Positions 21,787 through 63,120 of a stretch of DNA of 64,000 bases are shown here, one piece after another. Location: sequence record OR449013; one strand, given 5' to 3'. The stretch comes from Escherichia phage Mangalyan. A program made the position numbers and the translations under genes. The number at the start of each line of letters is the position of its first letter. Position 1 is the first letter of the stretch. The notes under the pieces are model-generated. The model was not told the DNA's origin, did no database searches, and saw only the letters and a program-made list of their open reading frames with translations.

Positions 21787-22605
21787 TTATGCCAGTGCAG
21801 CCTCAAAATCTTTCATCATATTTTGGAAAGTTTTTGCCTTACTTAAGGTAACACCGTGCTCTTTAGCGAAGGTTTGGAGTGCATCTTTTGAACCACTTTT
21901 GTCATCTTCGTTGTTAAGAGCTGCGGCCTGTTTAAGGATTTCATCCTTATTCTCAACAGCTGCAGATGCGAAAGAGGCTACAGCCACATCTTGTGGATCT
22001 GCTACAGGACCTTCACCGTCACCCTCTCCAGGCGGCTCAGGCTCTGGTTCAGGCTCAGGTTCAGGTGCTACTGTAGAAGTCAAACCCAGATTTATAACCT
22101 GAGAACGTTTCTTAGGCCACTCAATGGTGAAAGTTTGGGTATCTTCTTCATAAACAATGTTGCATTGCTCATCGTTTATGGTCACTTTTTTAGGCATTCC
22201 TGCAGGGTCCCATAGATGGCCCTCTGCCACGGAAACCTTGAAAGCAGCATCTACCTCTTTAAACACTGAAGGGGTAAGTGTAATGTTGACATCACCACTT
22301 TGAAGTGTTAAAGTGCTTTCATCAAGGTTCTCTGTGAAGAACAGAAGAATAACACCCATACGGATAGTTGAGATACCAGTATCAATTGGCAGGCCTGTGT
22401 GTTTTGCAATCTTCTCGAAGAAGTCTACAATCGTTCTGCATGGATAGTGAACACTTCCAATAACGAACTCTGTTGGTGGCAGCAGGGCTGATAAACCAAC
22501 ATTGATTTCTGGATTGTATTGTGCTAAAAATTGATAAAAACTTAACTGATTGTTGAAAACTCTTAATAGAGGATCATACTCGACTGGATATACAACTCTA
22601 TTCAC
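21787..22605 (-). CDS. hypothetical virion protein with PEPEPEPEPEP linker
   Basis: 272-aa ORF; internal (PE)n linker. Confidence 0.4.
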   Translation of the reverse strand: MNRVVYPVEYDPLLRVFNNQLSFYQFLAQYNPEINVGLSALLPPTEFVIGSVHYPCRTIVDFFEKIAKHTGLPIDTGISTIRMGVILLFFTENLDESTLTLQSGDVNITLTPSVFKEVDAAFKVSVAEGHLWDPAGMPKKVTINDEQCNIVYEEDTQTFTIEWPKKRSQVINLGLTSTVAPEPEPEPEPEPPGEGDGEGPVADPQDVAVASFASAAVENKDEILKQAAALNNEDDKSGSKDALQTFAKEHGVTLSKAKTFQNMMKDFEAALA

Positions 22606-22638
22606 GGGACACTCCTGTTAAACCCTAATAAATAAAAA

Positions 22639-22662
22639 GGGGAGGGGGAGAACCCCCTCCCC
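22639..22662 (-). terminator. rho-independent terminator
   Basis: GGGGAGGGGG-TTCT-CCCCCTCCCC hairpin then TTTTTATTTATT on minus strand, 3' of the capsid gene. Confidence 0.65.
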
Positions 22663-22686
22663 ATATGGGATGAATCACCTTAGTGA

Positions 22687-23691
22687 TTAGTCACCACCTT
22701 TCAGAGTTGCTTTAACAACCAGCTCTGGACGGGTGTTAACTGCCAGCATAGAGGTTTCAGATTCGATTTTCTGTTCTCTCAGGTAGGCAGAGTGTTTATA
22801 CCACATATACAGCTCTTGAGCTGGGGTATTTGCATCTTCCACAGTGTCAGCCGGGGCAAAGTGCAGCTGGAACATCTGATCGATACCCATAGGCATCAGG
22901 CGAGCCTCACCGTCCGGAATGTTGCCAGAAATATCTTCGATAAAGGTCATACCCTTGTGTTCAAACACACGGTAAATGCTTTGTTCGCCACCTGCACCCA
23001 GACGACGACGCAGCGGTTCCTGAGAAGAGCTGTAGTAGGTGTAGGCCAGCTCTACCAGTGGGTGATGAACCAGTGCAGAGAAGAATTTCGGAGAGCACAG
23101 CGCGATGATGTTATAAGCACCAGCGTTGTCACCAGCCTGCAGAGCAATGTGCAGACGTGCATCTTCGATTACTTCCATCGGGTCCTGTGCTGCATTTTTA
23201 GGATCGATTTCGATAGATTTCTGAGAAACGCCCCACAGCGTGTAATAGTCATACTGGCAAGTTTTGTCACCAGGTGCATAGGATTTACCCAGAATTGCAG
23301 AAAAAAGAGCTTTTTCACGCAGGGTTTCGTGGCTCAGACGAATACGACGAACTACACGAGTAACCACGTCTTGCACAGTTTTCGGTGCATCTGGGGTGAA
23401 GTAGCGACGAAAGTTCTGAACGTCCGCAGCAGTAATGCCCTTATCCAGCGGGAAGAACGGGATGTTCAGGTTTTTGATCTGTGCACGTTCGCTATCGACG
23501 TAGTTACGTTCACCACCACGACGGCGAGCGGCGATATCACCAACCACTTCATCAACACGTTCGATCTGTGCGATTGTTGAGGTGCCGAGATGGGTTTCAA
23601 ACAGATCCATACCAGTGATCAGGCGATATTGGCGCGGAACCAGTTCAAGAGTAGCACCTAAATCAACAATACCAAAATCATCTTTACGCAT
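22687..23691 (-). CDS. major capsid protein (lambda gpE-like)
   Basis: ATG at 23691 with GGAGAA SD (track starts at an upstream TTG, 23703); sequence style matches E-type capsid proteins; flanked by decoration and scaffold genes. Confidence 0.75.
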   Translation of the reverse strand: MRKDDFGIVDLGATLELVPRQYRLITGMDLFETHLGTSTIAQIERVDEVVGDIAARRRGGERNYVDSERAQIKNLNIPFFPLDKGITAADVQNFRRYFTPDAPKTVQDVVTRVVRRIRLSHETLREKALFSAILGKSYAPGDKTCQYDYYTLWGVSQKSIEIDPKNAAQDPMEVIEDARLHIALQAGDNAGAYNIIALCSPKFFSALVHHPLVELAYTYYSSSQEPLRRRLGAGGEQSIYRVFEHKGMTFIEDISGNIPDGEARLMPMGIDQMFQLHFAPADTVEDANTPAQELYMWYKHSAYLREQKIESETSMLAVNTRPELVVKATLKGGD

Positions 23692-23737
23692 TATTTTCTC
23701 CAAATAACTTTAAAATTTGTTTCCCAAAGATCTAGGA

Positions 23738-24112
23738 TTATTCCTGAACTTTGTTGCCTTTGGCTTCGAGAGCTTCCAGAACTGCAGCAGGTGCAGCTTC
23801 GCCGCTGGCTACTTTCAGGTGTTTTTTAGCGAAAGTAACGCCACGAACAGCAACGACTAATTTGTATTTCTGACCCACAGTCAGAGGCTCTGCCAGATTA
23901 ACTTTGCCAGCAGAGTCCGGCAGAAGTGCACGGTCAACCAGAACACCAAATGTGTCTGTGCCATCTTTGTTAGCCAGAGTGCCAGTTTTGGTAACTACTG
24001 CGCCAGCAACGTGATCAGCAGTAAGGGTAATTTCAATCTCTTTAAAGTTGAAACCTGCATCGCTTGCATCTACTTTGCCGAGCACGATATCAGAATATTG
24101 AGTGGTGATCAT
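23738..24112 (-). CDS. head decoration protein (gpD-like)
   Basis: 124-aa Ala/Gly/Val-rich ORF immediately upstream of the capsid gene. Confidence 0.55.
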   Translation of the reverse strand: MITTQYSDIVLGKVDASDAGFNFKEIEITLTADHVAGAVVTKTGTLANKDGTDTFGVLVDRALLPDSAGKVNLAEPLTVGQKYKLVVAVRGVTFAKKHLKVASGEAAPAAVLEALEAKGNKVQE

Positions 24113-24133
24113 TATTTTCCCCTATTAAGCAGA

Positions 24134-25114
24134 TTATTTATTAGATTCTTTACGTGCACGAGCCAGAGCTTTAGCGACGTTTTCAGCAATAATATCTTCA
24201 GCAGATTTAGCAATGTCATCTACTACGACATCACCATCTTTGCCTTGCTCGGTGGTTGCGAACTCTTCTTTAGCTTTTTCAACTTTAGCTTCCAGTTCAG
24301 CAATACGAGCTTGAGCTTTTTCCAGCAATTCAACAACAGGAGCGTTAGCTTTATCCAGCATGAATTCGACCAGAGATGCGTGGTCTTCTTCAGTGGTGAA
24401 GCTTAACGCCTGAGCTTTTTCCAGCATTTTAGCTTTTTCAACTTCTACCTGAGCCTTGATGATTTCTTCAGCTTTTTCATTGGTAGCTTTCAGTTCTTCG
24501 AACTGTTTCAGCAGGTCCAGGTACTCTTGAGACTTGGTTACGTCTTCCACCGGATTCTCCTCGGTATTTGCGGATTTATCAACATTGTCCACAGCGTCTG
24601 TAACAACTTCTTCTGTGGTTTCCTGCGCCGCTTTAATAAGTTTCCCTTCTTCATCGAAGAGATCAGCGGTCATCTGCTCAAAAACTTGTTGGGTTTTCAA
24701 CAGAGTGTATTGGTCAACAATACTTAAATCTTTACCTTCTTTAGCAGCTTTGTGAATGGTTACGTTATCACAACGTTCTTCTAACCACTGCACACAAGCC
24801 TCTGCATCAGCCTGTGCCCACTCCCAATCTGGGTGTTCTTTTGCCCAAGCTTCTTCCTCAATCTCGAACCCAAGCAGGTGAGCCAGTGCCTTAGCATCGT
24901 CATACCACATATCGAAAAAACGACGCAGGTATTCTTCAAAACTGAGCTCCACAGTAACTTGGCGAAGTGCCTTAACAATATCGTCTGTTAACTGCTCAGG
25001 CTTAAGATCGCTCTTCATTAAAAGAGATACAGGCCGATTGTTAGCGCTATAGCCTTGCGCCTTATGGCACAGGGCAATACCCTTCTCTTTAATAGTGATT
25101 GTTTTTTCAGACAT
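24134..25114 (-). CDS. putative scaffolding protein
   Basis: 326-aa Glu/Lys/Ala-rich helical ORF between portal and capsid genes. Confidence 0.5.
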   Translation of the reverse strand: MSEKTITIKEKGIALCHKAQGYSANNRPVSLLMKSDLKPEQLTDDIVKALRQVTVELSFEEYLRRFFDMWYDDAKALAHLLGFEIEEEAWAKEHPDWEWAQADAEACVQWLEERCDNVTIHKAAKEGKDLSIVDQYTLLKTQQVFEQMTADLFDEEGKLIKAAQETTEEVVTDAVDNVDKSANTEENPVEDVTKSQEYLDLLKQFEELKATNEKAEEIIKAQVEVEKAKMLEKAQALSFTTEEDHASLVEFMLDKANAPVVELLEKAQARIAELEAKVEKAKEEFATTEQGKDGDVVVDDIAKSAEDIIAENVAKALARARKESNK

Positions 25115-25545
25115 TATTCATTGCCCTCTTCTACAACACTGATCCCGAAATTTACATTGGTAATTTCGCCCGTCTCTTCATCAACATTACCTGTTGCCTG
25201 AATGCTTAGGCCACCAACAATGCCAGCCTTCTTAGCTTCCCATAATTCAGGATTATTGTATTTAACTTTAGCAACCCAAGAGCCAGCCTTGATGACCTGC
25301 TCAGTACCAATTACTACAACATCAAACTCTTCTTGAATCCACGTCTTTTCAATAGTGAAAGCATCTGTAGAGGTCAAGTGGAAAAGGTTTTCAGAAACTA
25401 GGCCTGCGGCGTATGCTGCGTCCCAATTATCTTTAGCCTTTTTGATGGTGTCTTTACTCATCCACTCACCGTGAGCGTCTTTAGTGTCCGGTTCGTAGAT
25501 GATTTCGTAGGAAATCATTTCTTCCTGTGGCATCTTATTCCCCAT
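25114..25545 (-). CDS. hypothetical head morphogenesis protein (possible small prohead protease)
   Basis: Track ORF 25114-25689 overlaps the portal 3' end; internal ATG 25545/25533 preferred. Confidence 0.3.
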   Translation of the reverse strand: MGNKMPQEEMISYEIIYEPDTKDAHGEWMSKDTIKKAKDNWDAAYAAGLVSENLFHLTSTDAFTIEKTWIQEEFDVVVIGTEQVIKAGSWVAKVKYNNPELWEAKKAGIVGGLSIQATGNVDEETGEITNVNFGISVVEEGNE

Positions 25546-25600
25546 GTGGATTATTTTATCACGCCAAAGGAGGTTTTGCAACCCCCTGTGTTGATAATTT

Positions 25601-27157
25601 TTAATTTTCCATGTTGGATATGGAATTATCTCTGGTTGATGACATCTTAGAAGTGCCGTTGCCAGTGGATCCTGCAGCCATTCCATCACCAGCCCTGCTG
25701 ATATCCTGGCCCAAGAGCTTCATCAGCTCTTCTTGATCCATGTCCTCGTCAAATCTTTCATCAAACCCACCTACTTCAAGAATCTTATTAATTACTGCAG
25801 GAGTTTTTGGCAAGTAACCTACAGCACCGATCCTCTGGACAAACTTGGAGAAGCTCTCCATGTCCACCTCTTCAATCAGGCCAGGTTTCAGTTTAGGCAT
25901 ATCATCATCTTCAAGGATGATACCATTCAATGCCAGAAGCTGTGGAATAAGATCTTTATTGAAGGCCTCAGTGATAATATCTATATCACGCTGAACAAAA
26001 TGACCATGGATAGACTGTTTTGACTCAGACAGAGAGAAGGATCCGACGTTATCGTTACCGAGGTTAATAAAGCCAGCACCGAAACGGTCAAGAATCGCCT
26101 TCTTACGGGCATCAATCAAATCTTTAGTGGAATACTGCTTGCCCATACCGTCAACCCCCTTCAGGGTCATGGAGTAAAGCTCTTTACCAGACTTATCTCT
26201 ATCAGACGGAAGTATAAAGAAACTTTGCTCCCCACTATGGGCGTTTGCTGCGTCAAGCATAAGATCTGCAACCATTCTCCCTTCCATTGAATTCGGGTCA
26301 ATACTGGCCTTGTTCAAAATATTGGAAGGAATTTTCAGCTCAAGCACACCACCAAGGTCTTTGGAACAGCCAACAACCTCAAGGTTTTCAATCAAAACTT
26401 TCTCACGGAAAGATCTGTAGCAACCTATCATCGGTGACACACCTGCAGGGTTAGATTCTGTTCCTGACAGAGTCATGAGCATAAGCTTTTTAGCAGGGAT
26501 GAAAATTTCAGGCTCATTAAAGCCTTTTGAAGGCATTGCAGCGAGAGGACCAGCCCAGCGTGCATTCTGCGTGTTTAGAAATGCATTAGGTGATTGATAA
26601 ATACCTGTCAGTGTTCTACTATTCTTGTCAAAGACAAACGGCTCTGATCTGGACAAACTGGCCTGTGGTCGGAACGCAATCTTATCAATAAGAAGCATCC
26701 CGGCGTATTTACCTTCTTTCTCTCTGCGGTATACTTTCTCAAACAGTGAAAAACCATACTCGTTAAAGGTAGCTGCGCTTCTTGCAATATCTCGAAGAGT
26801 TTGTTGGTTTGCCAAATTACGCAAAGAATACTCTATAAGCTCGGCAGCTTTCTTAGAGTCTTCACTTTTAACATTATAAAGGATCTTAAAATCATTAAAT
26901 GCTTTCGTGATGAAAACATATTTTGTATCTAAGGCAGTAGCAACTGTGGAATCACATTTCATAGTCTCCACTGTGGCAATCAGTTGAGGCCAACGCAATT
27001 CCTCAACCATCATAGATTGTGATTCTGCCATAATTTGGGAAAGTGCGCCAGAACCGATCTCACTCATACGAACATTATGAGTTGGTGCGCCTGCGTTCCC
27101 AGATTTATTCACAGTTTTGGCTGTGGCGTTGTGTTTCCTGCGGTTCTTTTTGGACAC
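25601..27157 (-). CDS. portal protein
   Basis: 518-aa ORF directly 3' of the terminase; start appears to be GTG. Confidence 0.7.
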   Translation of the reverse strand: MSKKNRRKHNATAKTVNKSGNAGAPTHNVRMSEIGSGALSQIMAESQSMMVEELRWPQLIATVETMKCDSTVATALDTKYVFITKAFNDFKILYNVKSEDSKKAAELIEYSLRNLANQQTLRDIARSAATFNEYGFSLFEKVYRREKEGKYAGMLLIDKIAFRPQASLSRSEPFVFDKNSRTLTGIYQSPNAFLNTQNARWAGPLAAMPSKGFNEPEIFIPAKKLMLMTLSGTESNPAGVSPMIGCYRSFREKVLIENLEVVGCSKDLGGVLELKIPSNILNKASIDPNSMEGRMVADLMLDAANAHSGEQSFFILPSDRDKSGKELYSMTLKGVDGMGKQYSTKDLIDARKKAILDRFGAGFINLGNDNVGSFSLSESKQSIHGHFVQRDIDIITEAFNKDLIPQLLALNGIILEDDDMPKLKPGLIEEVDMESFSKFVQRIGAVGYLPKTPAVINKILEVGGFDERFDEDMDQEELMKLLGQDISRAGDGMAAGSTGNGTSKMSSTRDNSISNMEN

Positions 27158-27180
27158 AAGCTTTACCCCTCAAAACAGTA

Positions 27181-27207
27181 TAACAAAATAGCCCTCGTCA
27201 GAGGGCT
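27181..27207 (-). terminator. terminator-like hairpin
   Basis: AGCCCTC-TGAC-GAGGGCT hairpin plus U-rich tail between terminase and portal genes. Confidence 0.35.
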
Positions 27208-27257: not shown

Positions 27258-28379
27258 TTAGATAAAACGCTTAAACATAGAAGGTGATGAGATTGATGGA
27301 ATCACACAAGGAAGTGCTACCTCCTCTTTCTCCAGGAAATTAATCGCAGAAGCTACACAGTCGGCCCAGTCGTCTTTTCTGTTAAATGTTGATCTTTCCC
27401 CGTTGAATTTTTCAAGTTCAGTCAGAAATGCTTCCAAAGTATCAGGATGGAAACTGGATTTTACAATCCTCACCATTCCTTGTTGGGCAAGATTGGCAAA
27501 AGGTGAGAACCTTGTCAGTTTAGATTTGTTGGAAGGCATTGGGTCTTCTTCAACCCTAAACCCTTCGGCGAGCAAGGATCTGGAGGAGGTTAAGAACTCA
27601 CTCTTACCTGCCTGACCGGGGTCCACAGAGAATACGATTATACAATCATCACCATCAAACTGCGCCTGTTTCCTGATGATCACATCTCGTTCACCAGCCT
27701 TTTTACAAAACTTACCTTCCAGACCTGTGGAATACCTCCCGTCATCCACGTTCTCAGGACAATAATCACCGGACAGGTAATAAAAGCCGTCACTATCTTT
27801 ACTTACCTTAACACTGGCGGTAAAGTCAGGAAATTTATTACCGGAAGTTCTCTCGGTTCCTGCCTTATCCCATGCTCTGCAAGATACTGATCCAAGGGGT
27901 ACTCTATCGGCATCACGAAGGAAAGATCTTTGAAAATAGTTTGCACCCTCAGGCTTTGCAAACCAGTTACCATGGAGAAGCTGAGCTTTTTCCAGCTCTG
28001 GTAGACCTTCGAGGAAAGCAAGGTATTCTGGGTTGTCTCTCAAACAGACAGGATTATCGAATATTGTTGCGCCTATGAACGAGAATGACAACGGTCTTGG
28101 CTTGATCTCTACACCCAGTCCGTTAACCGTGGTGTATTTCTCTATCAACTCTTCCTTAGAGTCTCCCCAAATAAATTCACCGTCGCGTCGGATAAAATAT
28201 CTTTTCTTACCGCATTTCTCAGGATCTGGATACCCTTCATCGTCCAACCACCATCTAACCAGTTTGGCAAGCATGTGTTCTGAATCGGGGTTACAGCTGA
28301 TAACCATTCTTGATGGATACTTTGACTGAGATCGCAGACGAGACATCAGATAGTCTATCTGCTCCCATTCGAATTGTGT
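27258..28379 (-). CDS. terminase large subunit, exon 2 (nuclease domain)
   Basis: Frame continues terminase reading after the predicted intron; Asp-rich nuclease-domain motifs. Exon 5' boundary (28379) is predicted, not proven. Confidence 0.75.
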   Translation of the reverse strand, partial: TQFEWEQIDYLMSRLRSQSKYPSRMVISCNPDSEHMLAKLVRWWLDDEGYPDPEKCGKKRYFIRRDGEFIWGDSKEELIEKYTTVNGLGVEIKPRPLSFSFIGATIFDNPVCLRDNPEYLAFLEGLPELEKAQLLHGNWFAKPEGANYFQRSFLRDADRVPLGSVSCRAWDKAGTERTSGNKFPDFTASVKVSKDSDGFYYLSGDYCPENVDDGRYSTGLEGKFCKKAGERDVIIRKQAQFDGDDCIIVFSVDPGQAGKSEFLTSSRSLLAEGFRVEEDPMPSNKSKLTRFSPFANLAQQGMVRIVKSSFHPDTLEAFLTELEKFNGERSTFNRKDDWADCVASAINFLEKEEVALPCVIPSISSPSMFKRFI

Positions 28380-28698
28380 CGTTTATGTTCGGGCAAGGTC
28401 GCTAGTCTTGCCCCGCCATTTTCAGGCAGCTGCATGTCTCCATGCAGACCAGACTATATCTTATAAGCGACAAAAACCGCTTACCCTCCCGTTTCGAATC
28501 GCTTGATTCTACGTCTCTCGACTAGTCGTTGAACGTTCATCCTCTCGGATGCTTCGCTGCGGATTATCTAAATTAACACACTGTTACCATACCTTCGATC
28601 TCTCTTCGAAGCCTCTATAATGTTACCATGACAGGTTGGTGGTGTCAATAATAAAGATTTCCCCGCAATTAGGGAGGTTTTACGAGAGCTACAAATTA
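28380..28698 (-). ncRNA. group I intron (ORF-less) in terminase large subunit gene
   Basis: Minus-strand P (AATTGCGGGGAAA, 28656-28671), Q (AATCCGCAGC, 28551-28565), R (GTTCAACGACTAGTC, 28520-28534), S (AAGATATAGTCTGG, 28449-28462); P1 pairing exon GAGGGU with intron GCUCUC; in-frame TAA right after exon 1. Confidence 0.8.
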
Positions 28699-29124
28699 AC
28701 CCTCATCGAAGCAAACCATGGTGTACTCAAGCCCTTGGTGGTTAAGCTTATCTTGTACATACTCCATGTGGCAGTATTTTACAACAGCCCCCTTTTTGCT
28801 TCTATCCCACTTGCCAGTGTTCGGATCAAACCGTGGAAAAATGAACTTATGATCCTTCTCTCTGAACTTTGGCTTAATGTTTTCAGGCAGATCACTATAA
28901 ATAGCTACTGCTTTAGGCCATAGTCCACCCTCACCTTCCAACTGTGGGGTTGTTCTTCGGAACATAACCACAGAGCTGTGGGGGTCATCAATAATTTTAA
29001 GCGGCATCAACTGCAAGAGGAACGACTTGCCAGACCCAGCTGCACCGCCGATTACCAAAATATCTGCATCGTTTTCGAGGATCATCTTCTGCTTTTCAGA
29101 ACACGGTCCGTAAATCTTAGACAT
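28699..29124 (-). CDS. terminase large subunit, exon 1 (ATPase domain)
   Basis: Walker A GGAAGSGKS and Walker B VCFDEG; ORF terminates in intron. Confidence 0.8.
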
Positions 29125-30227: not shown

Positions 30228-30304
30228 TGGTCTCCACGGAGTGATTCGAACACTCGACCTCCTGATCCCAAATCAGGCGCTCTACCAAGCTGAGCTACGC
30301 GGAG
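30228..30304 (-). tRNA. tRNA-Pro (anticodon TGG)
   Basis: Cloverleaf folded by hand on minus strand: acceptor CTCCGCG/CGTGGAG, anticodon loop TTTGGGA, T-loop GTTCGAATC, encoded CCA. Confidence 0.8.
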
Positions 30305-30315
30305 TATTTACTATT

Positions 30316-30390
30316 TGGTGGCCCTGGGTGGAATTGAACCACCGTCTGGCGATTATGAGTCGCTTGCTTGAACCTTCCAGCTACAGGGCC
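30316..30390 (-). tRNA. tRNA-Met/fMet/Ile2 (anticodon CAT)
   Basis: Acceptor GGCCCTG/CAGGGCC, anticodon loop CTCATAA, T-loop TTCAATT, CCA encoded. Confidence 0.8.
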
Positions 30391-30391
30391 T

Positions 30392-30467
30392 TGGTGCTAA
30401 TGGCAGGACTTGAACCTGCAACCTATTGATTACAAATCAATTGCACTACCAATTGTGCTACATCAGC
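30392..30467 (-). tRNA. tRNA-Thr (anticodon TGT)
   Basis: Acceptor GCTGATG/CATTAGC, anticodon stem ATTGA/TCAAT with loop TTTGTAA, T-loop TTCAAGT, CCA encoded. Confidence 0.8.
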
Positions 30468-30472
30468 AAAAA

Positions 30473-30571
30473 GGTGCTAGGTGATGGAATCGAACCATCT
30501 ATGTATTCAACGACTACCTCGTCTATTTTCAGGATTAAAAATCCTCGCCCTTGCCAAAGGGCTTACCTAGC
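30473..30571 (-). ncRNA. atypical 99-nt tRNA-like gene (Lys-type UUU anticodon loop, ~30-nt variable region)
   Basis: Acceptor GCTAGGT/ACCTAGC, D-arm GCCC-TTTGGCAA-GGGC, anticodon loop TTTTTAA, canonical T-arm GATGG-TTCGATT-CCATC, but ~30 nt lie between anticodon stem and T-stem. Confidence 0.45.
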
Positions 30572-30669
30572 TCAGTATGTTGACCATGTTGCTAGTCGGC
30601 GATGACGACTGTAACATTTGATAATCCGGTTCTGCTTCCGGCTTTCGCTTAATTACAAGGTCAACAATG

Positions 30670-30760
30670 TGGCGGAGAGTAATGGAATCGAACCATCATC
30701 GAGTCATCCTCAATGGGACGGTTTTCAAGACCGCTTGAGCACCATTGCTCCCTACTCTCC
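30670..30760 (-). tRNA. tRNA-Ser (anticodon TGA), class II
   Basis: Acceptor GGAGAGT/ACTCTCC, anticodon loop CTTGAAA, long variable arm, T-loop GGTTCGATTCC, CCA encoded. Confidence 0.8.
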
Positions 30761-30874
30761 TTTATAAATTATACTGATAATGACACTGATTTTCGAGCAG
30801 TTAGTGACTAGTATAAACGACGATAAATATCAATGCCATTATCTGTATTATTTATGCATCTAAAAATATAAATT

Positions 30875-30961
30875 TGGTGGGGAGTGGTGGAGTCGAACCA
30901 CCCGAGTCGCAATGACAATAGATTTACAGTCTACACCGCTACCTCTACGGGATAACTCCCC
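30875..30961 (-). tRNA. tRNA-Tyr (anticodon GTA), class II
   Basis: Acceptor GGGGAGT/ACTCCCC, anticodon stem GTAGA/TCTAT with loop CTGTAAA, long variable arm, T-loop GGTTCGACTCC. Confidence 0.8.
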
Positions 30962-30965
30962 AATT

Positions 30966-31040
30966 TGGCACCCCGTACTGGACTCGAACCAGTGTCAACG
31001 GCTTAGAAGGCCGCTGCTTTATCCACTAAGCTAACAGGGC
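30966..31040 (-). tRNA. tRNA-Arg (anticodon TCT)
   Basis: Acceptor GCCCTGT/ACGGGGT, anticodon stem GCGGC/GCCGT with loop CTTCTAA, T-loop GGTTCGAGTCC. Confidence 0.8.
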
Positions 31041-56881: not shown

Positions 56882-56945
56882 TACTTGACAAAAGCCACAA
56901 GGATGTGGCACCATACAGATGTTTAGGGAAGTTAGGAAACAAGAG

Positions 56946-58079
56946 ATGGCTAAATTATCGACAGAAGAGTTTATAGAGAAGGCGAAAATCATTCACGGTT
57001 ATAAATACAATTACAAGAAAACAGTGTACGTGGATTGCTATGCGAAGGTTTGCATTACCTGTCAAATCCATGGAGATTTTATGCAAGCACCTTGTCAACA
57101 CTTGCAAGGTCGTGGTTGTCCTTTTTGTGCAAAACTTTCTCGTGCTACAAAGTGTAATAAAGGTCTTAAATTTGTAGAAAGAGCCAAAGAAATCCATGGA
57201 GATAACTATGACTACTCTCTCGTATACTACAAGACTTGCAAAGATAAAGTAGAAATAATCTGCAATACTTGTGGAAATCACTTTACACAGACACCTGACA
57301 ATCATATAAATTTGAAAAGAGGTTGTCCAGTTTGCAAGGGGTCAAGAATCTCACAAAGCAAAACCAAACCTCATGAAAAGTGGGTTGAGGACATAGAGAA
57401 GAAAAATACTTATATTGAAATATTAGAAGAGATCACCACTGGGTGGAATAAAGTATTATGTCGTTGCAAAGTTTGCAACCACGAATGGTCAGCTACGCCT
57501 GTTATCCTTAAGCGTGGTCACGGCTGCCCCGGATGTGGCGGATCTATGAAAAAGACCACTGAAGAGTTTATCCAGGACGCTGTGGCTATCCACGGGAACA
57601 AGTATGATTACTCTAAAGTGAGGTATGTGAATTCACACATCAAGGTTACAATTGTTTGCACAGATCATGGAGATTTCTGTCAATCCCCTACCCAGCATTT
57701 AGGAGGGGGAGGGTGTCCTAAATGCACCAAAAGAGGATTTTTATCCCACGATTGTGGTAAACTTTACATTATGGTTGATGATCCGGAAGTGCCTACATTT
57801 ATGAAAATAGGTGTCAGTCATAATGAAAGTAAGCGAAGAGACCAGATACTTAAAAGTGCACAAAGATCTGGAGCTGGTATCTGCGATCTGTACATAGTGA
57901 AAACGTTGGAAGGATCAACTGAAAACATGCTGGCTGTAGAAAAATCTATGCACAAAGCCTTCAGTAAATATAAAATAAACTTCCCTGTAAAATTTGATGG
58001 TAGCACCGAATTCTTCTACTACAGGCCTGAGGTGTTCAGCACAGTGGAAGCAGCGTACAAAGAGATCTGCGGTAAATGA
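56946..58079 (+). CDS. zinc-ribbon repeat protein with C-terminal T5orf172/GIY-YIG-like domain (putative freestanding homing endonuclease)
   Basis: Three repeats of HG-x-Y-x-Y...C-x-HG-F...GCP-x-C and C-terminal KLYIMVDDP...MKIGVS; located between nrdD and nrdG. Confidence 0.4.
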   Translation: MAKLSTEEFIEKAKIIHGYKYNYKKTVYVDCYAKVCITCQIHGDFMQAPCQHLQGRGCPFCAKLSRATKCNKGLKFVERAKEIHGDNYDYSLVYYKTCKDKVEIICNTCGNHFTQTPDNHINLKRGCPVCKGSRISQSKTKPHEKWVEDIEKKNTYIEILEEITTGWNKVLCRCKVCNHEWSATPVILKRGHGCPGCGGSMKKTTEEFIQDAVAIHGNKYDYSKVRYVNSHIKVTIVCTDHGDFCQSPTQHLGGGGCPKCTKRGFLSHDCGKLYIMVDDPEVPTFMKIGVSHNESKRRDQILKSAQRSGAGICDLYIVKTLEGSTENMLAVEKSMHKAFSKYKINFPVKFDGSTEFFYYRPEVFSTVEAAYKEICGK

Positions 58080-59669: not shown

Positions 59670-60458
59670 ATGGGTCGAGCTAAAGAAACAAAACGCATGC
59701 GTGATGAAGCTAGAGAGGCTCGCAAATCTGATCGCCTGCGCAAGGCTGCTGAGAAATTTGCTGACGAAAGAGAGCACACCGCTCCAGCTCTCCGACCAAT
59801 GAATAAGAAGCAGCAAAAGTATCTTGATTATCTAGGGTCACGTAAGATTATCATTGTAAACGGTGTGTTTGGATCCGGTAAGACATTCATGGCATCTGCA
59901 TATGCAGGTGATCTTCTGCGTAAGAACGAGATTGATAAGATCATTGTTGCACGTCCTTACGTTCAGACAGGAAAGACTTCAGGATTTAAACCTGGAAATG
60001 CAATGCAGAAACTGTGGCCCTATCTTCGAAGCATGATGGACACGATTTGTCGTCGTGTTGGCAAAGGTGCTTTTGCCGCAATGCTGGGAGACGGTCAGAA
60101 CAGTCGTATCGAGATTTGTGAAGTTGAAAGCATTCGTGGTCGTAGTTTCGATGAGCGATGCTTTGTCCTGATTGACGAGGCACAGCAAACTAACCCTGAA
60201 GAAATGTTGTCAATTATCACAAGGATCTCTGATCAGGCCACCCTTGTAATCATGGGCGATAATAGCCAACGTGACATCCCTGGTAAATCTGGACTTGCAT
60301 GGGTGACGGATTTCTTTACTCGTCATCCAGATCCTGAGGTTGGAATGATCAGCTTTGATAGTCCAGACGATGTCGTTCGTTCCGGATTGGGTCGTCAGAT
60401 TGCACTCAATCTTATTGAGGATCGTGCAAATCATATTTGGACCCCTGTTTCCGAGTAA
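59670..60458 (+). CDS. phoH: PhoH-like ATPase
   Basis: Walker A GVFGSGKT, Walker B LIDEAQ; 262 aa. Confidence 0.8.
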   Translation: MGRAKETKRMRDEAREARKSDRLRKAAEKFADEREHTAPALRPMNKKQQKYLDYLGSRKIIIVNGVFGSGKTFMASAYAGDLLRKNEIDKIIVARPYVQTGKTSGFKPGNAMQKLWPYLRSMMDTICRRVGKGAFAAMLGDGQNSRIEICEVESIRGRSFDERCFVLIDEAQQTNPEEMLSIITRISDQATLVIMGDNSQRDIPGKSGLAWVTDFFTRHPDPEVGMISFDSPDDVVRSGLGRQIALNLIEDRANHIWTPVSE

Positions 60459-60502
60459 CACAGAAGGGTGGTTATTCCACCCTTAGATATCTAAAACAGT
60501 TG

Positions 60503-60531
60503 TTGACAAACAGGTAAGCTTTAGATATTAT
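60503..60531 (+). promoter_or_regulatory. sigma70-like promoter (TTGACA-17-TATTAT)
   Basis: TTGACAAAC...TATTATTATCGG upstream of the 60557 gene. Confidence 0.6.
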
Positions 60532-60556
60532 TATCGGACAAGGAGAAGGAGATAGT

Positions 60557-60868
60557 ATGGCTACAGTACAAGAGAAACTGAATAAAATATACTGCCTGTT
60601 TGTCTATAACGGCGAGACAATTCTGGCATATAAAGGATCCAAGAATGTATGGATCAAGGACAGTGGTGGTAATATAATCAACTTAGCGTTGCTACGTGAG
60701 CGCCGACACAGATTCTTTATCGAGTCTCGGATTATTGAAAGCAGCACCTGCTACAGAACAGGCGATAAAGTAATTGTTGACAATGATACGTGGTATGTGG
60801 TAGACTGGCAATCACTGAGCTGTGATGCTTCTGACAATCGTAAGTACTCTATAGTGATTGCTAAATAA
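60557..60868 (+). CDS. hypothetical protein
   Basis: 103-aa ORF with AAGGAGAAGGAG SD. Confidence 0.4.
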   Translation: MATVQEKLNKIYCLFVYNGETILAYKGSKNVWIKDSGGNIINLALLRERRHRFFIESRIIESSTCYRTGDKVIVDNDTWYVVDWQSLSCDASDNRKYSIVIAK

Positions 60869-60928
60869 AGGTAAATGTGAATCAGGTTTAAATAAATAGC
60901 TTTCAACTTCCAATATTAAGGATCTCTC

Positions 60929-61978
60929 ATGAATTTAACACCTCGCAGCACCATGGTACACGGCATGAAAGAAAAACAGAACGGTTTCGAACCTATGAGT
61001 AATAAAATGTTTGGTATGCCGGGGGGTATTATGGAAACATATAGCTACCCAACACCTGTTGTTGACCACGTTCTTTATATCGACGATTTGGAAGACTTAC
61101 AAGATCATATGTCTCGTCTGCAGACGATCCGTATGGCTCAGCCGGAAGAAAGCATTCGGGTGATCATCAATAGCCCAGGGGGCTGCGTGCACATTGCAAT
61201 GGCTTATTTGCAGGCATTCCGCGAGTCTCAGGCAAGCGTTGTTGCACACGCTGAAGGGATGTGCTGCTCGGCAGGAACAATCTTATGGCTGGGCTGCAAA
61301 GAACGAACTGTGGCTCCGGACACAGAATTTATGTTCCACTACTATCAAGGTGGCACCTATGGTAACGGTGTGAACATGAATACCCAGATCAACTACTGGA
61401 AGAAACGTTTTGAACGCCTGATCGAAAAATACTACGGTGGGGTGTTAACAGAAGATGAGATCGCATCCATCACAGCTGGCGGTGAAGTGTGGTTAGATGG
61501 AGAAGAACTGGCATCTAGAACTGGTGCTATCATTCTGGACGATGAAAACATTCAGCGCATTCAGAATGGACAGAAACCGAAAAAGCTTTTGGCAAAAAGT
61601 GATGAAGAAGGTGTGCTAGGCGAAGCAGGCCTGCCAGAGATTCACCAATGCACATCTCTGGACGAGCTGGTTCATGCTGTTGAGTCTGCAAAAGCAAATG
61701 GTATGAAAGATGATGTTCACACTGTGTTCCTGAATCTGCAGATGGAAAGTGGCGAGACCGTCCGGATCGCCCTGGGTGAAATTACTTCAGAAGATCTGCA
61801 GCGATTCTCTGTCGTCGAACTTCAGGATATTCTGTCTCAATTGAAGACTACTCTGAACGGCGGTGAAGAGGTTAAGGTGAAAGACAAGACCCGCAAGCGT
61901 CTGATGGACAATATCATTAAAACAGCAAAAGAGCTCAATGAAAAAATCCTGGGTGCAGGAATTGTCGAAGAAGCTTAA
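60929..61978 (+). CDS. ClpP-like serine protease (S14 family) with C-terminal extension
   Basis: INSPGGCV, catalytic-Ser context MCCSAGT and His context MFHYY match the ClpP family; ~130-aa helical C-terminal extension. Confidence 0.6.
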   Translation: MNLTPRSTMVHGMKEKQNGFEPMSNKMFGMPGGIMETYSYPTPVVDHVLYIDDLEDLQDHMSRLQTIRMAQPEESIRVIINSPGGCVHIAMAYLQAFRESQASVVAHAEGMCCSAGTILWLGCKERTVAPDTEFMFHYYQGGTYGNGVNMNTQINYWKKRFERLIEKYYGGVLTEDEIASITAGGEVWLDGEELASRTGAIILDDENIQRIQNGQKPKKLLAKSDEEGVLGEAGLPEIHQCTSLDELVHAVESAKANGMKDDVHTVFLNLQMESGETVRIALGEITSEDLQRFSVVELQDILSQLKTTLNGGEEVKVKDKTRKRLMDNIIKTAKELNEKILGAGIVEEA

Positions 61979-61991
61979 ACATTAATTCTAA

Positions 61992-62013
61992 AGCCCTCTT
62001 CGGAGGGCTTTTA
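61992..62013 (+). terminator. rho-independent terminator
   Basis: AGCCCTC-TTCG-GAGGGCT followed by TTTTAT. Confidence 0.6.
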
Positions 62014-62029
62014 TGATCTGGAGATTTGC

Positions 62030-62563
62030 ATGACTTGTGCTAGAAAACCTGATGAACAACGTAACGCCTACGATGAGTATGTGACACCGGAGTGGTGTGC
62101 AGAAGGGCTGTATGACCTTATTCCGTTCCCAGAAGACTGGACCTACTTAGAGCCTTGCAGGAATAGTGCCTCAGGTGTGTTCTACTCCCGTATGCCGTTA
62201 GGATCTGCATGGGGAGAAATACAAGAAGGTGTTGACTATCTGAATACAGAATACAACCATGTTGACTGTATTATCACCAACCCACCATACAGCCTGGCTC
62301 GTGAGTTTGTAGACAAGGCGTTGAAAGATGCTGACGTAGTTATTATGCTTTTGCGTCTTAATTTTCTGGAAAGCAAAGCCAGATTTGAATGGTGGCTTGA
62401 TAATGCACCTACTACTGTGATCACAATATCTAAGCGTCCATCATTTCAATCAAACGGCAGAACTGACGGGCAAGCATATGCATATTTTGTGTGGGATAAG
62501 AAAAACCGTTTAGACTTGCCGCCGTTTATGTGGTTGGCACCCCCAGAGGTAGACCTGAAATGA
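62030..62563 (+). CDS. small N6-adenine DNA methyltransferase (phage Dam-like)
   Basis: Catalytic motif IITNPPYS; N-terminal YDEYVTPEW; 177 aa. Confidence 0.6.
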   Translation: MTCARKPDEQRNAYDEYVTPEWCAEGLYDLIPFPEDWTYLEPCRNSASGVFYSRMPLGSAWGEIQEGVDYLNTEYNHVDCIITNPPYSLAREFVDKALKDADVVIMLLRLNFLESKARFEWWLDNAPTTVITISKRPSFQSNGRTDGQAYAYFVWDKKNRLDLPPFMWLAPPEVDLK

Positions 62564-62844
62564 AAATGAGTGCTAAGGACAAATTACACCAGCTAGCGCT
62601 AAAACGCCCTGTAACGCTCCCTGACGAGCTTAACTCCATTTATGATGCGATTGTAGGGGAGATACAAAATAAAGCGTTAGCAGGCTTTCTGGGGTGCGGA
62701 TTTTCGATAAATCTACCCTCGCATCTCTCAGATTACTTCCCGCACATTGTTGGAGATTTAAGGGCAGGAGGTCTGCAGGTAGATGTTGTTGGCATCTCCC
62801 CAGAGAAAAATAATACGGTTGCCTACTTGACAGTAACCTGGTAG
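62560..62844 (+). CDS. hypothetical protein
   Basis: ATG 62560 overlapping the methyltransferase stop (ATGA) with GAGGT SD. Confidence 0.35.
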   Translation: MKMSAKDKLHQLALKRPVTLPDELNSIYDAIVGEIQNKALAGFLGCGFSINLPSHLSDYFPHIVGDLRAGGLQVDVVGISPEKNNTVAYLTVTW

Positions 62845-62880
62845 TTGTGTATTGTTGTTTTCAACAAGAGGGGGTCATTT

Positions 62881-63120
62881 ATGTACAAGTCATTTTCAAT
62901 CTACTCAAGACAGGCGAAACACTACACAGAGATCCTGATCACTCAGAAAAAATCTGTGGAAGGTGAGTGGGAATATCACCATAAAATGTTGCGTCCAGAC
63001 TGGGTTTTTGATAGACTTATTGCTATGATCCCTCTCGGAGAAGTATACCCTCTGACAGCCCATCGCGATGCTTGGGATTTAATTGATTACATAGATTCAT
63101 TTAAGGAGCCTAGATTATGA
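62881..63120 (+). CDS. hypothetical protein
   Basis: ATG 62881 with AGAGGGGG SD. Confidence 0.35.
   Translation: MYKSFSIYSRQAKHYTEILITQKKSVEGEWEYHHKMLRPDWVFDRLIAMIPLGEVYPLTAHRDAWDLIDYIDSFKEPRL

What the first reader, a model, noticed from the sequence alone, without database searches (positions are those of the whole stretch)
60929..61978. ClpP-like serine protease with long extension, encoded far from the capsid genes
The protein has ClpP family signatures but lies in the plus-strand module between PhoH and a methyltransferase, ~35 kb from portal, scaffold and capsid genes, where the only protease candidate is a small uncertain ORF. Either the prohead protease is encoded outside the morphogenesis operon, or this is a non-structural protease targeting host or regulatory proteins; the ~130-aa C-terminal helical extension could be a scaffold-like or targeting domain.
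Basis: partly seen in the sequence, partly recalled or inferred. Interest (0 to 1): 0.5.

Follow-up and report, generated by a model that had tools for sequence, protein, structure and literature searches.

The report
Non-structural ClpP-like phage protease beside PhoH
This rV5-like coliphage gene encodes a probably active ClpP-fold serine protease that is most likely not the capsid-maturation enzyme; it belongs to an uncharacterised phage protease clade that usually sits beside the enigmatic PhoH ATPase gene.

Summary
The ORF is real (60929-61978, +, 349 aa). It is rV5 gp122, already annotated as a ClpP protease subunit in over 100 Vequintavirus genomes. The core (residues 45-212) is a ClpP fold with invariant Ser114, His137 and oxyanion-hole GG.

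ORF 25114-25545 (-), between portal and scaffold, is a confident XkdF-type prohead protease (Pfam 64.6 bits, cutoff 24).

The ClpP-like gene lies in its own unit, sigma70-type promoter, gp121, gp122, terminator, among nucleotide-metabolism genes. In 15 homologous phage loci it never lies between portal and capsid genes. The ICP1 homologue is transcribed middle-late with PhoH, while its capsid cluster is late.

It is not a canonical ClpP. ClpX/ClpA docking-pocket residues map to invariant polar residues, and it scores below every cellular ClpP model and below the ClpP-related head-maturation model.

New here: PhoH lies four genes or fewer upstream in 11 of 15 loci, sometimes overlapping. The C-terminal domain is an orphan fold confined to this family.

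Most likely it is a non-structural middle-phase protease. Its substrates are unknown.

The parts
60929..61978 (+). ClpP-like serine protease gene (rV5 gp122 orthologue), 349 aa
   Evidence: The ORF is listed. Pfam CLP_protease matches at E=1.4e-12. phrog_5410 matches over the full length at E=7e-155. It is 96-99.7% identical to annotated genes of rV5-like phages.
60929..61060 (+). N-terminal region, residues 1-44, predicted disordered, with conserved FG..PG and YSYP motifs; no equivalent of the ClpP axial loop or helix A was recognised
   Evidence: pLDDT is below 50 for residues 1-40. F28, G29, Y40 and P41 are conserved. The Pfam match starts at profile position 32.
61061..61564 (+). ClpP-fold protease core, residues 45-212. 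Catalytic Ser114 is codon 61268-61270, His137 is codon 61337-61339, Glu186 (at the position of ClpP Asp171) is codon 61484-61486, and the oxyanion-hole residues are G84-G85.
   Evidence: The AF2 core has pLDDT 85-95. Foldseek matches ClpP chains at E about 1e-9 with TMt 0.65-0.74. S114, H137, G84 and G85 are invariant in the alignments.
61565..61657 (+). Flexible linker, residues 213-243, variable in length among relatives
   Evidence: pLDDT is about 40. The region is rich in indels in alignment A1.
61658..61954 (+). Orphan C-terminal domain, residues 244-342: a helix, a beta-hairpin and two helices, with conserved F293, E297, L298, R322 and L325
60503..60531 (+). Sigma70-type promoter (TTGACA-17-TATTAT), equivalent to rV5 P121
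   Evidence: It matches the consensus at 11 of 12 positions. The sequence was read. It is identical to P121 in rV5 Table S4.
60557..60868 (+). Co-transcribed 103-aa ORF (rV5 gp121 orthologue), function unknown
   Evidence: phrog_5456, function unknown, matches at E=6.6e-39. There is no Pfam hit. Weak homologues occupy the same position in Seunavirus-like and CR3 phages.
61993..62014 (+). Intrinsic terminator GCCCTCTTCGGAGGGC-TTTTAT, equivalent to rV5 t122, ending the gp121-gp122 unit
   Evidence: The sequence was read. It is listed as t122 (-14.9 kcal/mol) in rV5 Table S4.
59670..60458 (+). PhoH-like P-loop ATPase gene, the recurrent upstream neighbour of this protease clade
   Evidence: Pfam PhoH matches at E=3.6e-47. 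The adjacency recurs in 11 of 15 loci.
62030..62563 (+). DNA N6-adenine methyltransferase-like gene, the recurrent downstream neighbour
   Evidence: phrog_799 matches at E=8e-67. The Dam and EcoRI_methylase Pfam hits are weak. A methyltransferase lies next to or within two ORFs downstream in 7 of 15 loci.
25114..25545 (-). XkdF-type (Peptidase_S78_2) prohead protease in the head module; this is the actual capsid-maturation protease candidate
   Evidence: Pfam matches at E=1.1e-17, 64.6 bits against a cutoff of 24. It lies between portal and scaffold. BASEL genomes annotate it 'prohead protease' and ICP1 records 'capsid protease'. The likely start is M49 or M53 of the listed ORF.
22687..27157 (-). 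Head morphogenesis block: portal (25601-27157), protease, scaffold-like acidic helical protein (24134-25114), decoration protein (23738-24112) and Phage_cap_E major capsid protein (22687-23703)
   Evidence: The family matches are.

Best explanation
The gene encodes a catalytically competent ClpP-fold serine protease with nucleophile Ser114, general base His137, Glu186 at the third triad position and a GG oxyanion hole. It is a non-structural, pre-late (early or middle) phage function, not the prohead protease.

It belongs to a phage-specific clade (PHROGs 5410 and 1827) that is somewhat closer in sequence to ClpP-related head-maturation proteases than to cellular ClpP. This clade has left the head module and sits among nucleotide-metabolism and replication genes, typically directly downstream of PhoH.

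By inference from the fold, including a handle helix, it assembles into ClpP-like rings. The hydrophobic pocket that receives the IGF/LGF loops of ClpX and ClpA is replaced by invariant polar residues, and the phage encodes no Clp unfoldase. It therefore probably does not work as a standard ClpXP or ClpAP subunit. It would degrade unstructured or specifically recruited host or early phage proteins, either on its own or with a phage partner.

In Vequintavirinae-like phages, a flexible linker of about 30 residues carries an orphan C-terminal domain. Its most plausible role is recruitment of a substrate, partner or nucleic acid; there is a weak SAP/HeH-like signal.

Shown: the fold, the catalytic residues, the transcription-unit signals, the context, the family distribution and the existence of a separate prohead protease. 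Inferred: the oligomeric state, independence from ClpX/ClpA, the timing in this phage, the role of the C-terminal domain and the substrates.
For: - Fold and residues.
- A separate, confident XkdF-type prohead protease sits in canonical position. The same XkdF-type head-module protease plus unlinked ClpP-like pair is seen in ICP1 and Otagovirus.
- The gene has its own sigma70-type promoter and terminator, while the late-promoter motif is restricted to the structural module.
- The context is non-structural in all 15 phage loci. The controls behave as expected.
- ICP1 gp211 is classed 'Middle-late' with PhoH, while the capsid cluster is late.
- rV5 gp122 is absent from the 19 virion proteins detected by MS, and the MCP N-terminal peptide is present.
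- Docking-pocket residues Y60, F82, I90, M92 and F112 map to invariant R77, E99, H107, E109 and T127, and there is a 5-residue deletion where L48 and F49 lie.
- rV5 has no annotated ClpX, ClpA or Lon.
- NCBIfam scores are 61 bits for the head-maturation type (cutoff 120) and 40 bits or less for cellular ClpP models (cutoffs 228-361).
- The C-terminal domain is an orphan.
Against: - There is no direct expression, localisation, activity or substrate data for any member of this clade.
- 'Middle-late' timing in ICP1 overlaps procapsid assembly.
- Absence from mature virions is uninformative, because prohead proteases are normally lost from virions, and only 19 proteins were detected.
- The clade's best profile hits are head-maturation proteases.
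- The docking-pocket argument rests on a sequence mapping and on a residue list recalled from the ClpP literature, not on a complex model.
- In many relatives the third triad position is Gln.
- The promoter call is a consensus match, although it was also made independently by the rV5 authors.
Confidence: 0.6

Rival explanations
1. It is a second morphogenetic protease, or even the true prohead protease. It would be made before or with the late proteins, be targeted into procapsids or another assembly intermediate by its C-terminal domain, and cleave scaffold, portal, internal or tail proteins.
For: - The best profile matches outside its own PHROGs are head-maturation proteases: phrog_1684 at 83 bits and NF045542 at 61 bits.
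- C-terminal targeting extensions are known in capsid proteases such as HK97 gp4 (cited).
- The ICP1 homologue is 'Middle-late', so the protein would be present during assembly.
- Absence from virions is expected for a prohead protease.
Against: - A canonical XkdF-type protease already occupies the portal-scaffold slot.
- None of the 15 loci is in a head module.
- It has a sigma70-type promoter, not the late motif.
- The score is below the NF045542 cutoff.
- The MCP is not N-terminally processed.
- The C-terminal domain is absent from most of the clade (Pakpunavirus, Otagovirus and Sugarlandvirus proteins of 182-203 aa).
Confidence: 0.15
2. It is what the databases call it: a proteolytic subunit of an ATP-dependent Clp protease. 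It would dock to host ClpX or ClpA, or co-assemble with host ClpP into mixed rings, and so redirect or poison host proteolysis.
For: - It has the ClpP fold, including the handle helix.
- The Pfam CLP_protease domain threshold is met.
- Heteromeric ClpP1/ClpP2 complexes exist in bacteria and are among the top structural hits.
Against: - Hydrophobic docking-pocket residues are replaced by invariant polar or charged residues, and helix B is shortened.
- The N-terminal axial-loop region has no match and is predicted disordered.
- It scores 22-40 bits against cellular ClpP models with cutoffs of 228-361.
- There is no unfoldase gene nearby or annotated in rV5.
- A cellular control shows the expected tig-clpP-clpX context, which these phage genes lack.
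Confidence: 0.12
3. PhoH and the ClpP-like protein form one functional unit. The PhoH P-loop ATPase would serve as the energy-dependent or RNA/ribosome-directed partner of the protease.
For: - PhoH lies four genes or fewer upstream on the same strand in 11 of 15 loci, with gaps of -8, 1, 3 and 11 nt in four of them. Published phage V22 shows the same adjacency.
- The adjacency survives partner replacement: ClpP-like proteins 80% identical sit beside PhoH proteins only 33% identical, and the reverse case also occurs.
- The two genes share a temporal class in ICP1.
Against: - The evidence is synteny only.
- Four of the 15 loci lack PhoH nearby.
- In this window a hairpin and a promoter separate PhoH from the gp121-gp122 unit.
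- From general knowledge, PhoH is not an AAA+ unfoldase, and no protease partner is known for it.
- Shared descent of an old module could explain much of the linkage (Mantel r=0.49).
Confidence: 0.1
4. It is a catalytically dead ClpP-fold protein with a structural or regulatory (pseudo-enzyme) role.
For: The third triad residue is Gln in many relatives. ClpR-type inactive paralogues are known (general knowledge).
Against: Ser114, His137 and the oxyanion-hole GG are invariant across both the family and the wider clade. The window protein has Glu at the third position, and 8 of 10 clade members have Asp or Glu there.
Confidence: 0.03

Closest known systems
Cellular ClpP (MEROPS S14; E. coli ClpP, e.g. 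PDB 1TYF, 6WR2)
   Same: It shares the ClpP/crotonase-type fold with a handle helix, with TM about 0.7 over 160-177 columns. The catalytic Ser and His and the INSPGG oxyanion motif align without gaps.
   Different: - Identity is only 17-23%, and it scores far below all curated ClpP models.
- The third triad residue is Glu or Gln rather than Asp.
- The IGF-loop docking pocket is polar.
- No N-terminal axial loop or helix A is recognisable.
- It carries an extra C-terminal linker and domain of 137 aa.
- There is no clpX neighbour; it sits in a phage nucleotide-metabolism context instead.
ClpP-related phage head-maturation proteases (NCBIfam NF045542 and NF045540; PHROGs 1684, 94, 2976, 133)
   Same: These are the best-scoring named families at 61 and 52 bits (NCBIfam) and 83 bits (PHROG). 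They are phage-borne ClpP-fold Ser/His enzymes, often with C-terminal extensions.
   Different: - It scores below the curated cutoff of 120 bits.
- It is never located between portal and capsid genes, unlike the control locus L017.
- It has a host-type promoter, and its ICP1 homologue is timed middle-late.
- The phage already has a different, XkdF-type prohead protease.
Uncharacterised phage 'ATP-dependent protease' clade: ICP1 gp211, Pakpunavirus ORF46, Otagovirus gp045, Sugarlandvirus gp038, Barbavirus gp072 (PHROG 1827/5410)
   Same: The protease domains are homologous at 19-35% identity with the same invariant residues. They share the non-structural context and the frequent PhoH neighbour.
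   Different: Most members are 180-240 aa and lack the C-terminal domain. ICP1 gp211 has an unrelated extension of about 140 aa. The HAEG and R77 polar motifs are specific to the Vequintavirinae-like subfamily.
Jumbo-phage ClpP noted by Iyer et al. 2021 (PMC7824862)
   Same: That paper already proposes that patchily distributed phage ClpP peptidases are deployed against host proteins rather than for virion maturation.
   Different: It concerns a different set of phages, and the proposal is a comparative-genomic suggestion without experiments. It makes no mention of PhoH linkage or of loss of the docking pocket.

Membership tests
Cellular ClpP (ATP-dependent Clp protease proteolytic subunit) | ClpP fold with a handle region | tested here: met
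   Foldseek against the PDB returns ClpP chains as all top hits, with E about 1e-9, TMt 0.65-0.74 and 160-177 aligned columns. The model contains a long helix at residues 150-169, equivalent to the handle helix.
Cellular ClpP (ATP-dependent Clp protease proteolytic subunit) | Ser-His-Asp catalytic triad | tested here: inconclusive
   S97 maps to S114 and H122 to H137, and both are invariant. The Asp171-equivalent position is Glu186 here. It is Asp or Glu in 8 of 10 clade members and Gln in 2 of 10 and in most close relatives. The geometry in the model could not be inspected.
Cellular ClpP (ATP-dependent Clp protease proteolytic subunit) | Scores above the curated whole-protein thresholds of ClpP models | tested here: not met
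   TIGR00493 scores 33.9 bits against a cutoff of 308.6. PRK12553 scores 39.8 against 228, and PRK00277 scores 38.7 against 249. Only the permissive Pfam domain threshold is met, at 48.3 against 20.2.
Cellular ClpP (ATP-dependent Clp protease proteolytic subunit) | Hydrophobic surface pocket that docks the IGF/LGF loops of ClpX and ClpA (E. coli Y60, Y62, F82, I90, M92, F112, L114, L189; residue list from the ClpP literature, recalled from memory) | tested here: not met
   The region aligns without gaps. Y60 maps to R77, F82 to E99, I90 to H107, M92 to E109 and F112 to T127, all invariant in the family. Y62 maps to I79 and L114 to A129. A 5-residue deletion removes the L48/F49 region. The test is based on sequence mapping only.
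Cellular ClpP (ATP-dependent Clp protease proteolytic subunit) | N-terminal axial loops and helix A that gate the pore and communicate with the unfoldase | tested here: inconclusive
   The Pfam match starts at profile position 32. Residues 1-44 have pLDDT below 50 and contain conserved Pro- and Gly-rich motifs.
Cellular ClpP (ATP-dependent Clp protease proteolytic subunit) | Tetradecameric, self-compartmentalised assembly | not testable with these tools
   No multimer prediction or experiment was available.
Cellular ClpP (ATP-dependent Clp protease proteolytic subunit) | Genomic or functional pairing with a Clp/Hsp100 AAA+ unfoldase | tested here: not met
   There is no unfoldase gene in the neighbourhood. 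The rV5 gene table lists no ClpX, ClpA or Lon, only a distant MoxR AAA+. The cellular control shows tig-clpP-clpX. Use of host ClpX or ClpA was not tested.
ClpP-related head maturation protease (NF045542) | Scores above the curated threshold | tested here: not met
   It scores 61.2 bits against a cutoff of 120.
ClpP-related head maturation protease (NF045542) | Encoded in the head module between portal and scaffold or major capsid genes | tested here: not met
   The gene is 34-38 kb from the head module on the opposite strand. None of the 15 homologous loci is in a head module, whereas control L017 shows TerL-portal-ClpP-like-decoration-MCP.
ClpP-related head maturation protease (NF045542) | Late expression and presence in procapsids, with cleavage of scaffold or capsid proteins | tested here: inconclusive
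   The gene has a sigma70-type promoter and its own terminator. The ICP1 homologue is 'Middle-late', not late. The protein is not among the 19 rV5 virion proteins. Procapsid content and cleavage are not testable here.
Phage 'ATP-dependent protease' PHROG 5410 (Vequintavirinae-type, with C-terminal domain) | Full-length profile match including the C-terminal domain | tested here: met
   E=7e-155, with residues 24-345 aligned to profile positions 4-322 of 323. In the phage collection, 179 records cover at least 80% of the protein.
SppA / NfeD / SDH-type ClpP-clan peptidases | Family thresholds and their own catalytic arrangements | tested here: not met
   NfeD1b_N scores 18.2 bits against a cutoff of 40, SDH_protease 15.8 against 31.3, and Clp_like_SDH 24.3 against 250. 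The ClpP-type His is invariant.
SAP / HeH / Rho_N helix-extended-helix motif (C-terminal domain) | Significant profile or fold match to the SAP, HeH or Rho_N families | tested here: inconclusive

The most novel reading that the evidence does not exclude
PhoH and this ClpP-like protease could be the two halves of a previously unrecognised phage machine. In it, a non-AAA+ PhoH-type P-loop ATPase, possibly RNA- or ribosome-directed, would deliver or license substrates for a ClpP-fold peptidase that has lost the ClpX/ClpA docking pocket. That would give phage PhoH, a long-used marker gene of unknown function, its first concrete role.
Probability: 0.1. Interest if true: 0.8.

Novelty: new variant of a known kind. 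Interest (0 to 1): 0.42.

Why it matters
The gene is labelled 'ATP-dependent Clp protease subunit' in hundreds of phage genomes. The evidence here says that the label is unsupported and that the protein is not the capsid-maturation enzyme either. It defines a widespread, uncharacterised class of non-structural phage proteases.

Two points make it worth an experiment. First, its persistent pairing with PhoH offers a handle on what phage PhoH does. Second, the CBASS cyclase EcCdnG, which senses phage protease activity, restricts Vequintavirinae (Bas48-59) with a specificity different from T4 gp21, and the triggering protease has not been named. These phages carry two candidates: the XkdF-type head protease and this ClpP-like enzyme.

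Tried and rejected
- A literature search for functional data on rV5, Vequintavirus, ICP1 or EdH4 ClpP-like genes found only annotations.
- The ICP1 gp211 extension is not detectably homologous to this one.
- The search for related loci with the broad clade alignment failed because no stretch was conserved enough. I replaced it with the look-up of encoding contigs on diverse homologues.
- phmmer of the XkdF-type protease against PDB sequences found nothing.
- I looked for a phage-encoded unfoldase and found none apart from a distant MoxR AAA+.
- I considered a membrane-bound NfeD or SppA type and rejected it, because the scores are below threshold and there is no hydrophobic segment.
Full report
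**1.

The window is a Vequintavirus (rV5-like Escherichia myovirus). The 3 kb around the finding is 96-98% identical to MiataMamis, LL12, AlexBoehm (Bas56), slur16 and rV5 variants. The ORF at 60929..61978 (+) exists as described, is 349 aa and has an AAGGA ribosome-binding motif upstream. It is the orthologue of rV5 gp122, which Kropinski et al. 2013 annotated as 'ClpP (ATP-dependent) protease subunit' (PMC3606486, Table S3).

The family signals are:
- Pfam CLP_protease at E=1.4e-12, covering only residues 59-168.
- A full-length match to phrog_5410 at E=7e-155.

- PhoH at 59670-60458 (Pfam E=3.6e-47).
- A 103-aa ORF at 60557-60868.
- A DNA methyltransferase at 62030-62563.
- The head genes on the minus strand, 34-38 kb away.

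**2. The head module already has a protease**

The order on the minus strand is:
- portal (25601-27157)
- an ORF ending at 25114
- an acidic, helical, scaffold-like protein (24134-25114)
- decoration protein (23738-24112)
- a Phage_cap_E major capsid protein (22687-23703)

The ORF after portal matches Pfam Peptidase_S78_2 (XkdF-type phage serine protease) at E=1.1e-17, 64.6 bits against a cutoff of 24. Its likely start is M49 or M53 of the listed ORF, just downstream of the portal stop codon. BASEL genomes annotate this gene 'prohead protease' and its neighbour 'head scaffold protein', and ICP1 records call the homologue 'capsid protease'. The PHROG label 'DNA methyltransferase' for this family appears to be a propagated misannotation.

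The rV5 virion MS table lists 19 proteins, and gp122 is not among them. The first MCP peptide, KDEFGIVDLGATLDLVPR, corresponds to residues 3-20 of the MCP, so the MCP N-terminus is not removed.

**3. Anatomy of the protein**

An AlphaFold2 model built from 21 homologues gives four regions:
- a disordered N-terminus (residues 1-40)
- a confident core (45-212, pLDDT 85-95)
- a disordered linker (213-243)
- a separately folded C-terminal part

Against the PDB, the core matches ClpP chains only, with E about 1e-9, TMt 0.65-0.74 and 160-177 aligned columns.

Ser114, His137 and G84-G85 (in the INSPGG motif) are invariant in the family and in a wider clade alignment. They align with ClpP S97, H122 and the oxyanion-hole glycines. 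The position of ClpP Asp171 is Glu186 here. It is Asp or Glu in 8 of 10 clade members and Gln in the rest. The protein is therefore very probably an active serine peptidase.

**4. It is not a canonical ClpP**

I used the E. coli ClpP sequence recalled from memory; S97, H122 and D171 fall on Ser, His and Asp, which checks the numbering. The stretch between INSPGG and the catalytic Ser aligns without gaps. The hydrophobic residues that the ClpP literature assigns to the IGF/LGF-loop docking pocket map as follows:

| E. coli ClpP | This protein | Invariant in the family |
|---|---|---|
| Y60 | R77 | yes |
| F82 | E99 | yes |
| I90 | H107 | yes |
| M92 | E109 | yes |
| F112 | T127 | yes |
| Y62 | I79 | - |
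| L114 | A129 | - |

A 5-residue deletion also removes the L48/F49 region. The equivalents of F82 and I90 are polar across the wider clade too.

NCBIfam scores point the same way. Cellular ClpP models give 22-40 bits against cutoffs of 228-361. The best hits are 'head maturation protease, ClpP-related' (61.2 bits, cutoff 120) and the prohead protease/MCP fusion model (52.2 bits). The same ranking holds for the ICP1, Pakpunavirus and Sugarlandvirus homologues. rV5 has no annotated ClpX, ClpA or Lon.

The database label 'ATP-dependent protease subunit' is thus not supported, although use of host unfoldases has not been tested experimentally.

**5. Transcription unit and timing**

A near-consensus sigma70 promoter (TTGACA-17-TATTAT, 60503-60531) precedes the 103-aa ORF. 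A GC-rich hairpin with a T tract (61993-62014) follows the protease gene. Both were predicted independently for rV5 as P121 and t122. The distinct late-promoter motif in that paper occurs only in the minus-strand structural module.

For ICP1, RNA-seq classes gp208 (PhoH) through gp211 (ClpP-like) as 'Middle-late'. The capsid cluster gp122-126, including the gp125 protease, is late (PMC7567579).

**6. Comparative context**

tblastn finds the protease domain in 939 phage records. Only 179 of them, from Vequintavirinae and relatives, cover at least 80% of the protein. I read 15 phage loci:
- this window
- CR3
- a Seunavirus-like Salmonella phage
- Acinetobacter ABPH49
- ICP1
- Otagovirus phiPsa381
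- Barbavirus
- Pakpunavirus
- Sugarlandvirus IME260
- Schitoviridae VBP32
- five metagenomic contigs

None has the gene between portal and capsid genes. The neighbours are RNR, thymidylate synthase, DHFR, dCMP deaminase, ligase, DNA polymerase and similar genes.

The controls behave as expected:
- A Paracoccus prophage ClpP-related head protease sits in terminase-portal-protease-decoration-MCP order.
- A cellular ClpP sits in tig-clpP-clpX order.

ICP1 and Otagovirus also carry the XkdF-type head protease in addition to the unlinked ClpP-like gene. The two proteases therefore coexist stably in several lineages.

**7. The PhoH link**

In 11 of the 15 loci, PhoH lies four genes or fewer upstream on the same strand. 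The intergenic gaps are -8 nt in Otagovirus, and 1, 3 and 11 nt in three metagenomic contigs. A DNA methyltransferase lies next to or within two ORFs downstream in 7 of 15. The published Alteromonas phage V22 also lists PhoH (CDS-146) next to Clp protease (CDS-147) without comment.

Pairwise identities of the two proteins co-vary only moderately (r=0.49; 7 of 5000 permutations reach this value). There are clear swaps. ClpP-like proteins about 80% identical sit next to PhoH proteins only 33% identical (L009 and L011 versus L012). Conversely, PhoH is 73% and the ClpP-like protein 40% identical between CR3 and ABPH49. Adjacency kept through partner replacement suggests selection for linkage, but this is synteny evidence only. 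In this window a hairpin and a promoter separate PhoH from the gp121-gp122 unit. I found no paper that draws this link.

**8. The C-terminal domain**

Modelled alone (residues 240-349), the C-terminal part folds as a helix, a beta-hairpin and two helices, with pLDDT about 90 in the core. F293, E297 and R322 are invariant, and L298, G311 and L325 are at least 90% conserved.

Searches for relatives gave the following:
- A profile search of 1.84 billion representative proteins returned five hits, all from this family or fragments of it.
- BFVD gave one significant hit, an unnamed protein of family size.

Sub-threshold signals point to a SAP/HeH-like motif:
- Pfam SAP matched 2 of 17 members and HeH 1 of 17, at E about 0.06-0.08.
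- MANF and a putative DNA-binding protein (2rno) scored E 0.5-1; that these carry SAP-type domains is from memory.

I treat this as a hint only. ICP1 gp211 has an extension of similar length that is not detectably homologous, and most clade members have none. The domain is therefore a lineage-specific add-on, most plausibly for recruitment, and not a scaffold.

**9. Verdict**

A second morphogenetic role (0.15), canonical ClpXP/ClpAP use or mixing with host ClpP (0.12), and a PhoH-coupled machine (0.10) remain open.

The gene itself is long catalogued. What is new here is:
- It fails the defining tests of both named families.
- Its sequence affinity to head-maturation proteases suggests that a head protease was exapted.
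- It pairs with PhoH.
- Its C-terminal domain is an orphan.

A recent preprint shows that the CBASS cyclase EcCdnG, which senses phage protease activity, restricts Bas48-59 Vequintavirinae with a specificity unlike T4 gp21, and it does not name the protease. These phages offer two candidates.

Noticed in passing
window 28430-28708 (-), with ORFs 28696-29124 and 27258-28346: A group I intron (Rfam RF00028, 83.8 bits) interrupts the terminase large-subunit gene. The N-terminal part (Terminase_6N positions 2-104) and the C-terminal part (positions 117-211 plus Terminase_6C) are separate ORFs.
   Followed up: partly
window 56919-58079 (+): A 386-aa ORF carries repeated treble-clef zinc fingers (DUF4379) and a T5orf172 (GIY-YIG-like) domain. 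It looks like a homing endonuclease and lies beside the anaerobic ribonucleotide reductase genes. In AlexBoehm the nrdD CDS is annotated as joined from two pieces.
   Followed up: partly
window 30231-31040 (-): There is a cluster of six tRNA genes between the terminase region and the strand switch.
   Followed up: no
window 25114-25545 (-): PHROG phrog_1530 and many GenBank records label the XkdF-type prohead protease 'DNA methyltransferase'. This appears to be a propagated misannotation, possibly from a fusion protein in the PHROG.
   Followed up: partly
phage collection hits to window 60000-63000 and 22600-27200: Eighteen to nineteen unannotated records named 'Campylobacter phage' (MG0656xx) match these E. 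coli rV5-like regions at 88-97% identity. The host label looks doubtful.
   Followed up: no
L009/L011 vs L012; L006 vs L008: Nearly identical ClpP-like genes (about 80% identity) sit next to very different PhoH genes (33%), and the reverse also occurs (PhoH 73%, ClpP-like 40%). One partner has been exchanged while the adjacency was kept.
   Followed up: partly
window 60460-60489 (+): A GGGTGG/CCACCC hairpin lies directly after the PhoH stop codon and before the P121-type promoter. It could be a terminator or a processing site separating PhoH from the gp121-gp122 unit.
   Followed up: no
L015 2733-3242: A metagenomic phage contig that carries a ClpP-like gene also encodes an Acb1-family (anti-CBASS nuclease) protein a few genes upstream.
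   Followed up: no
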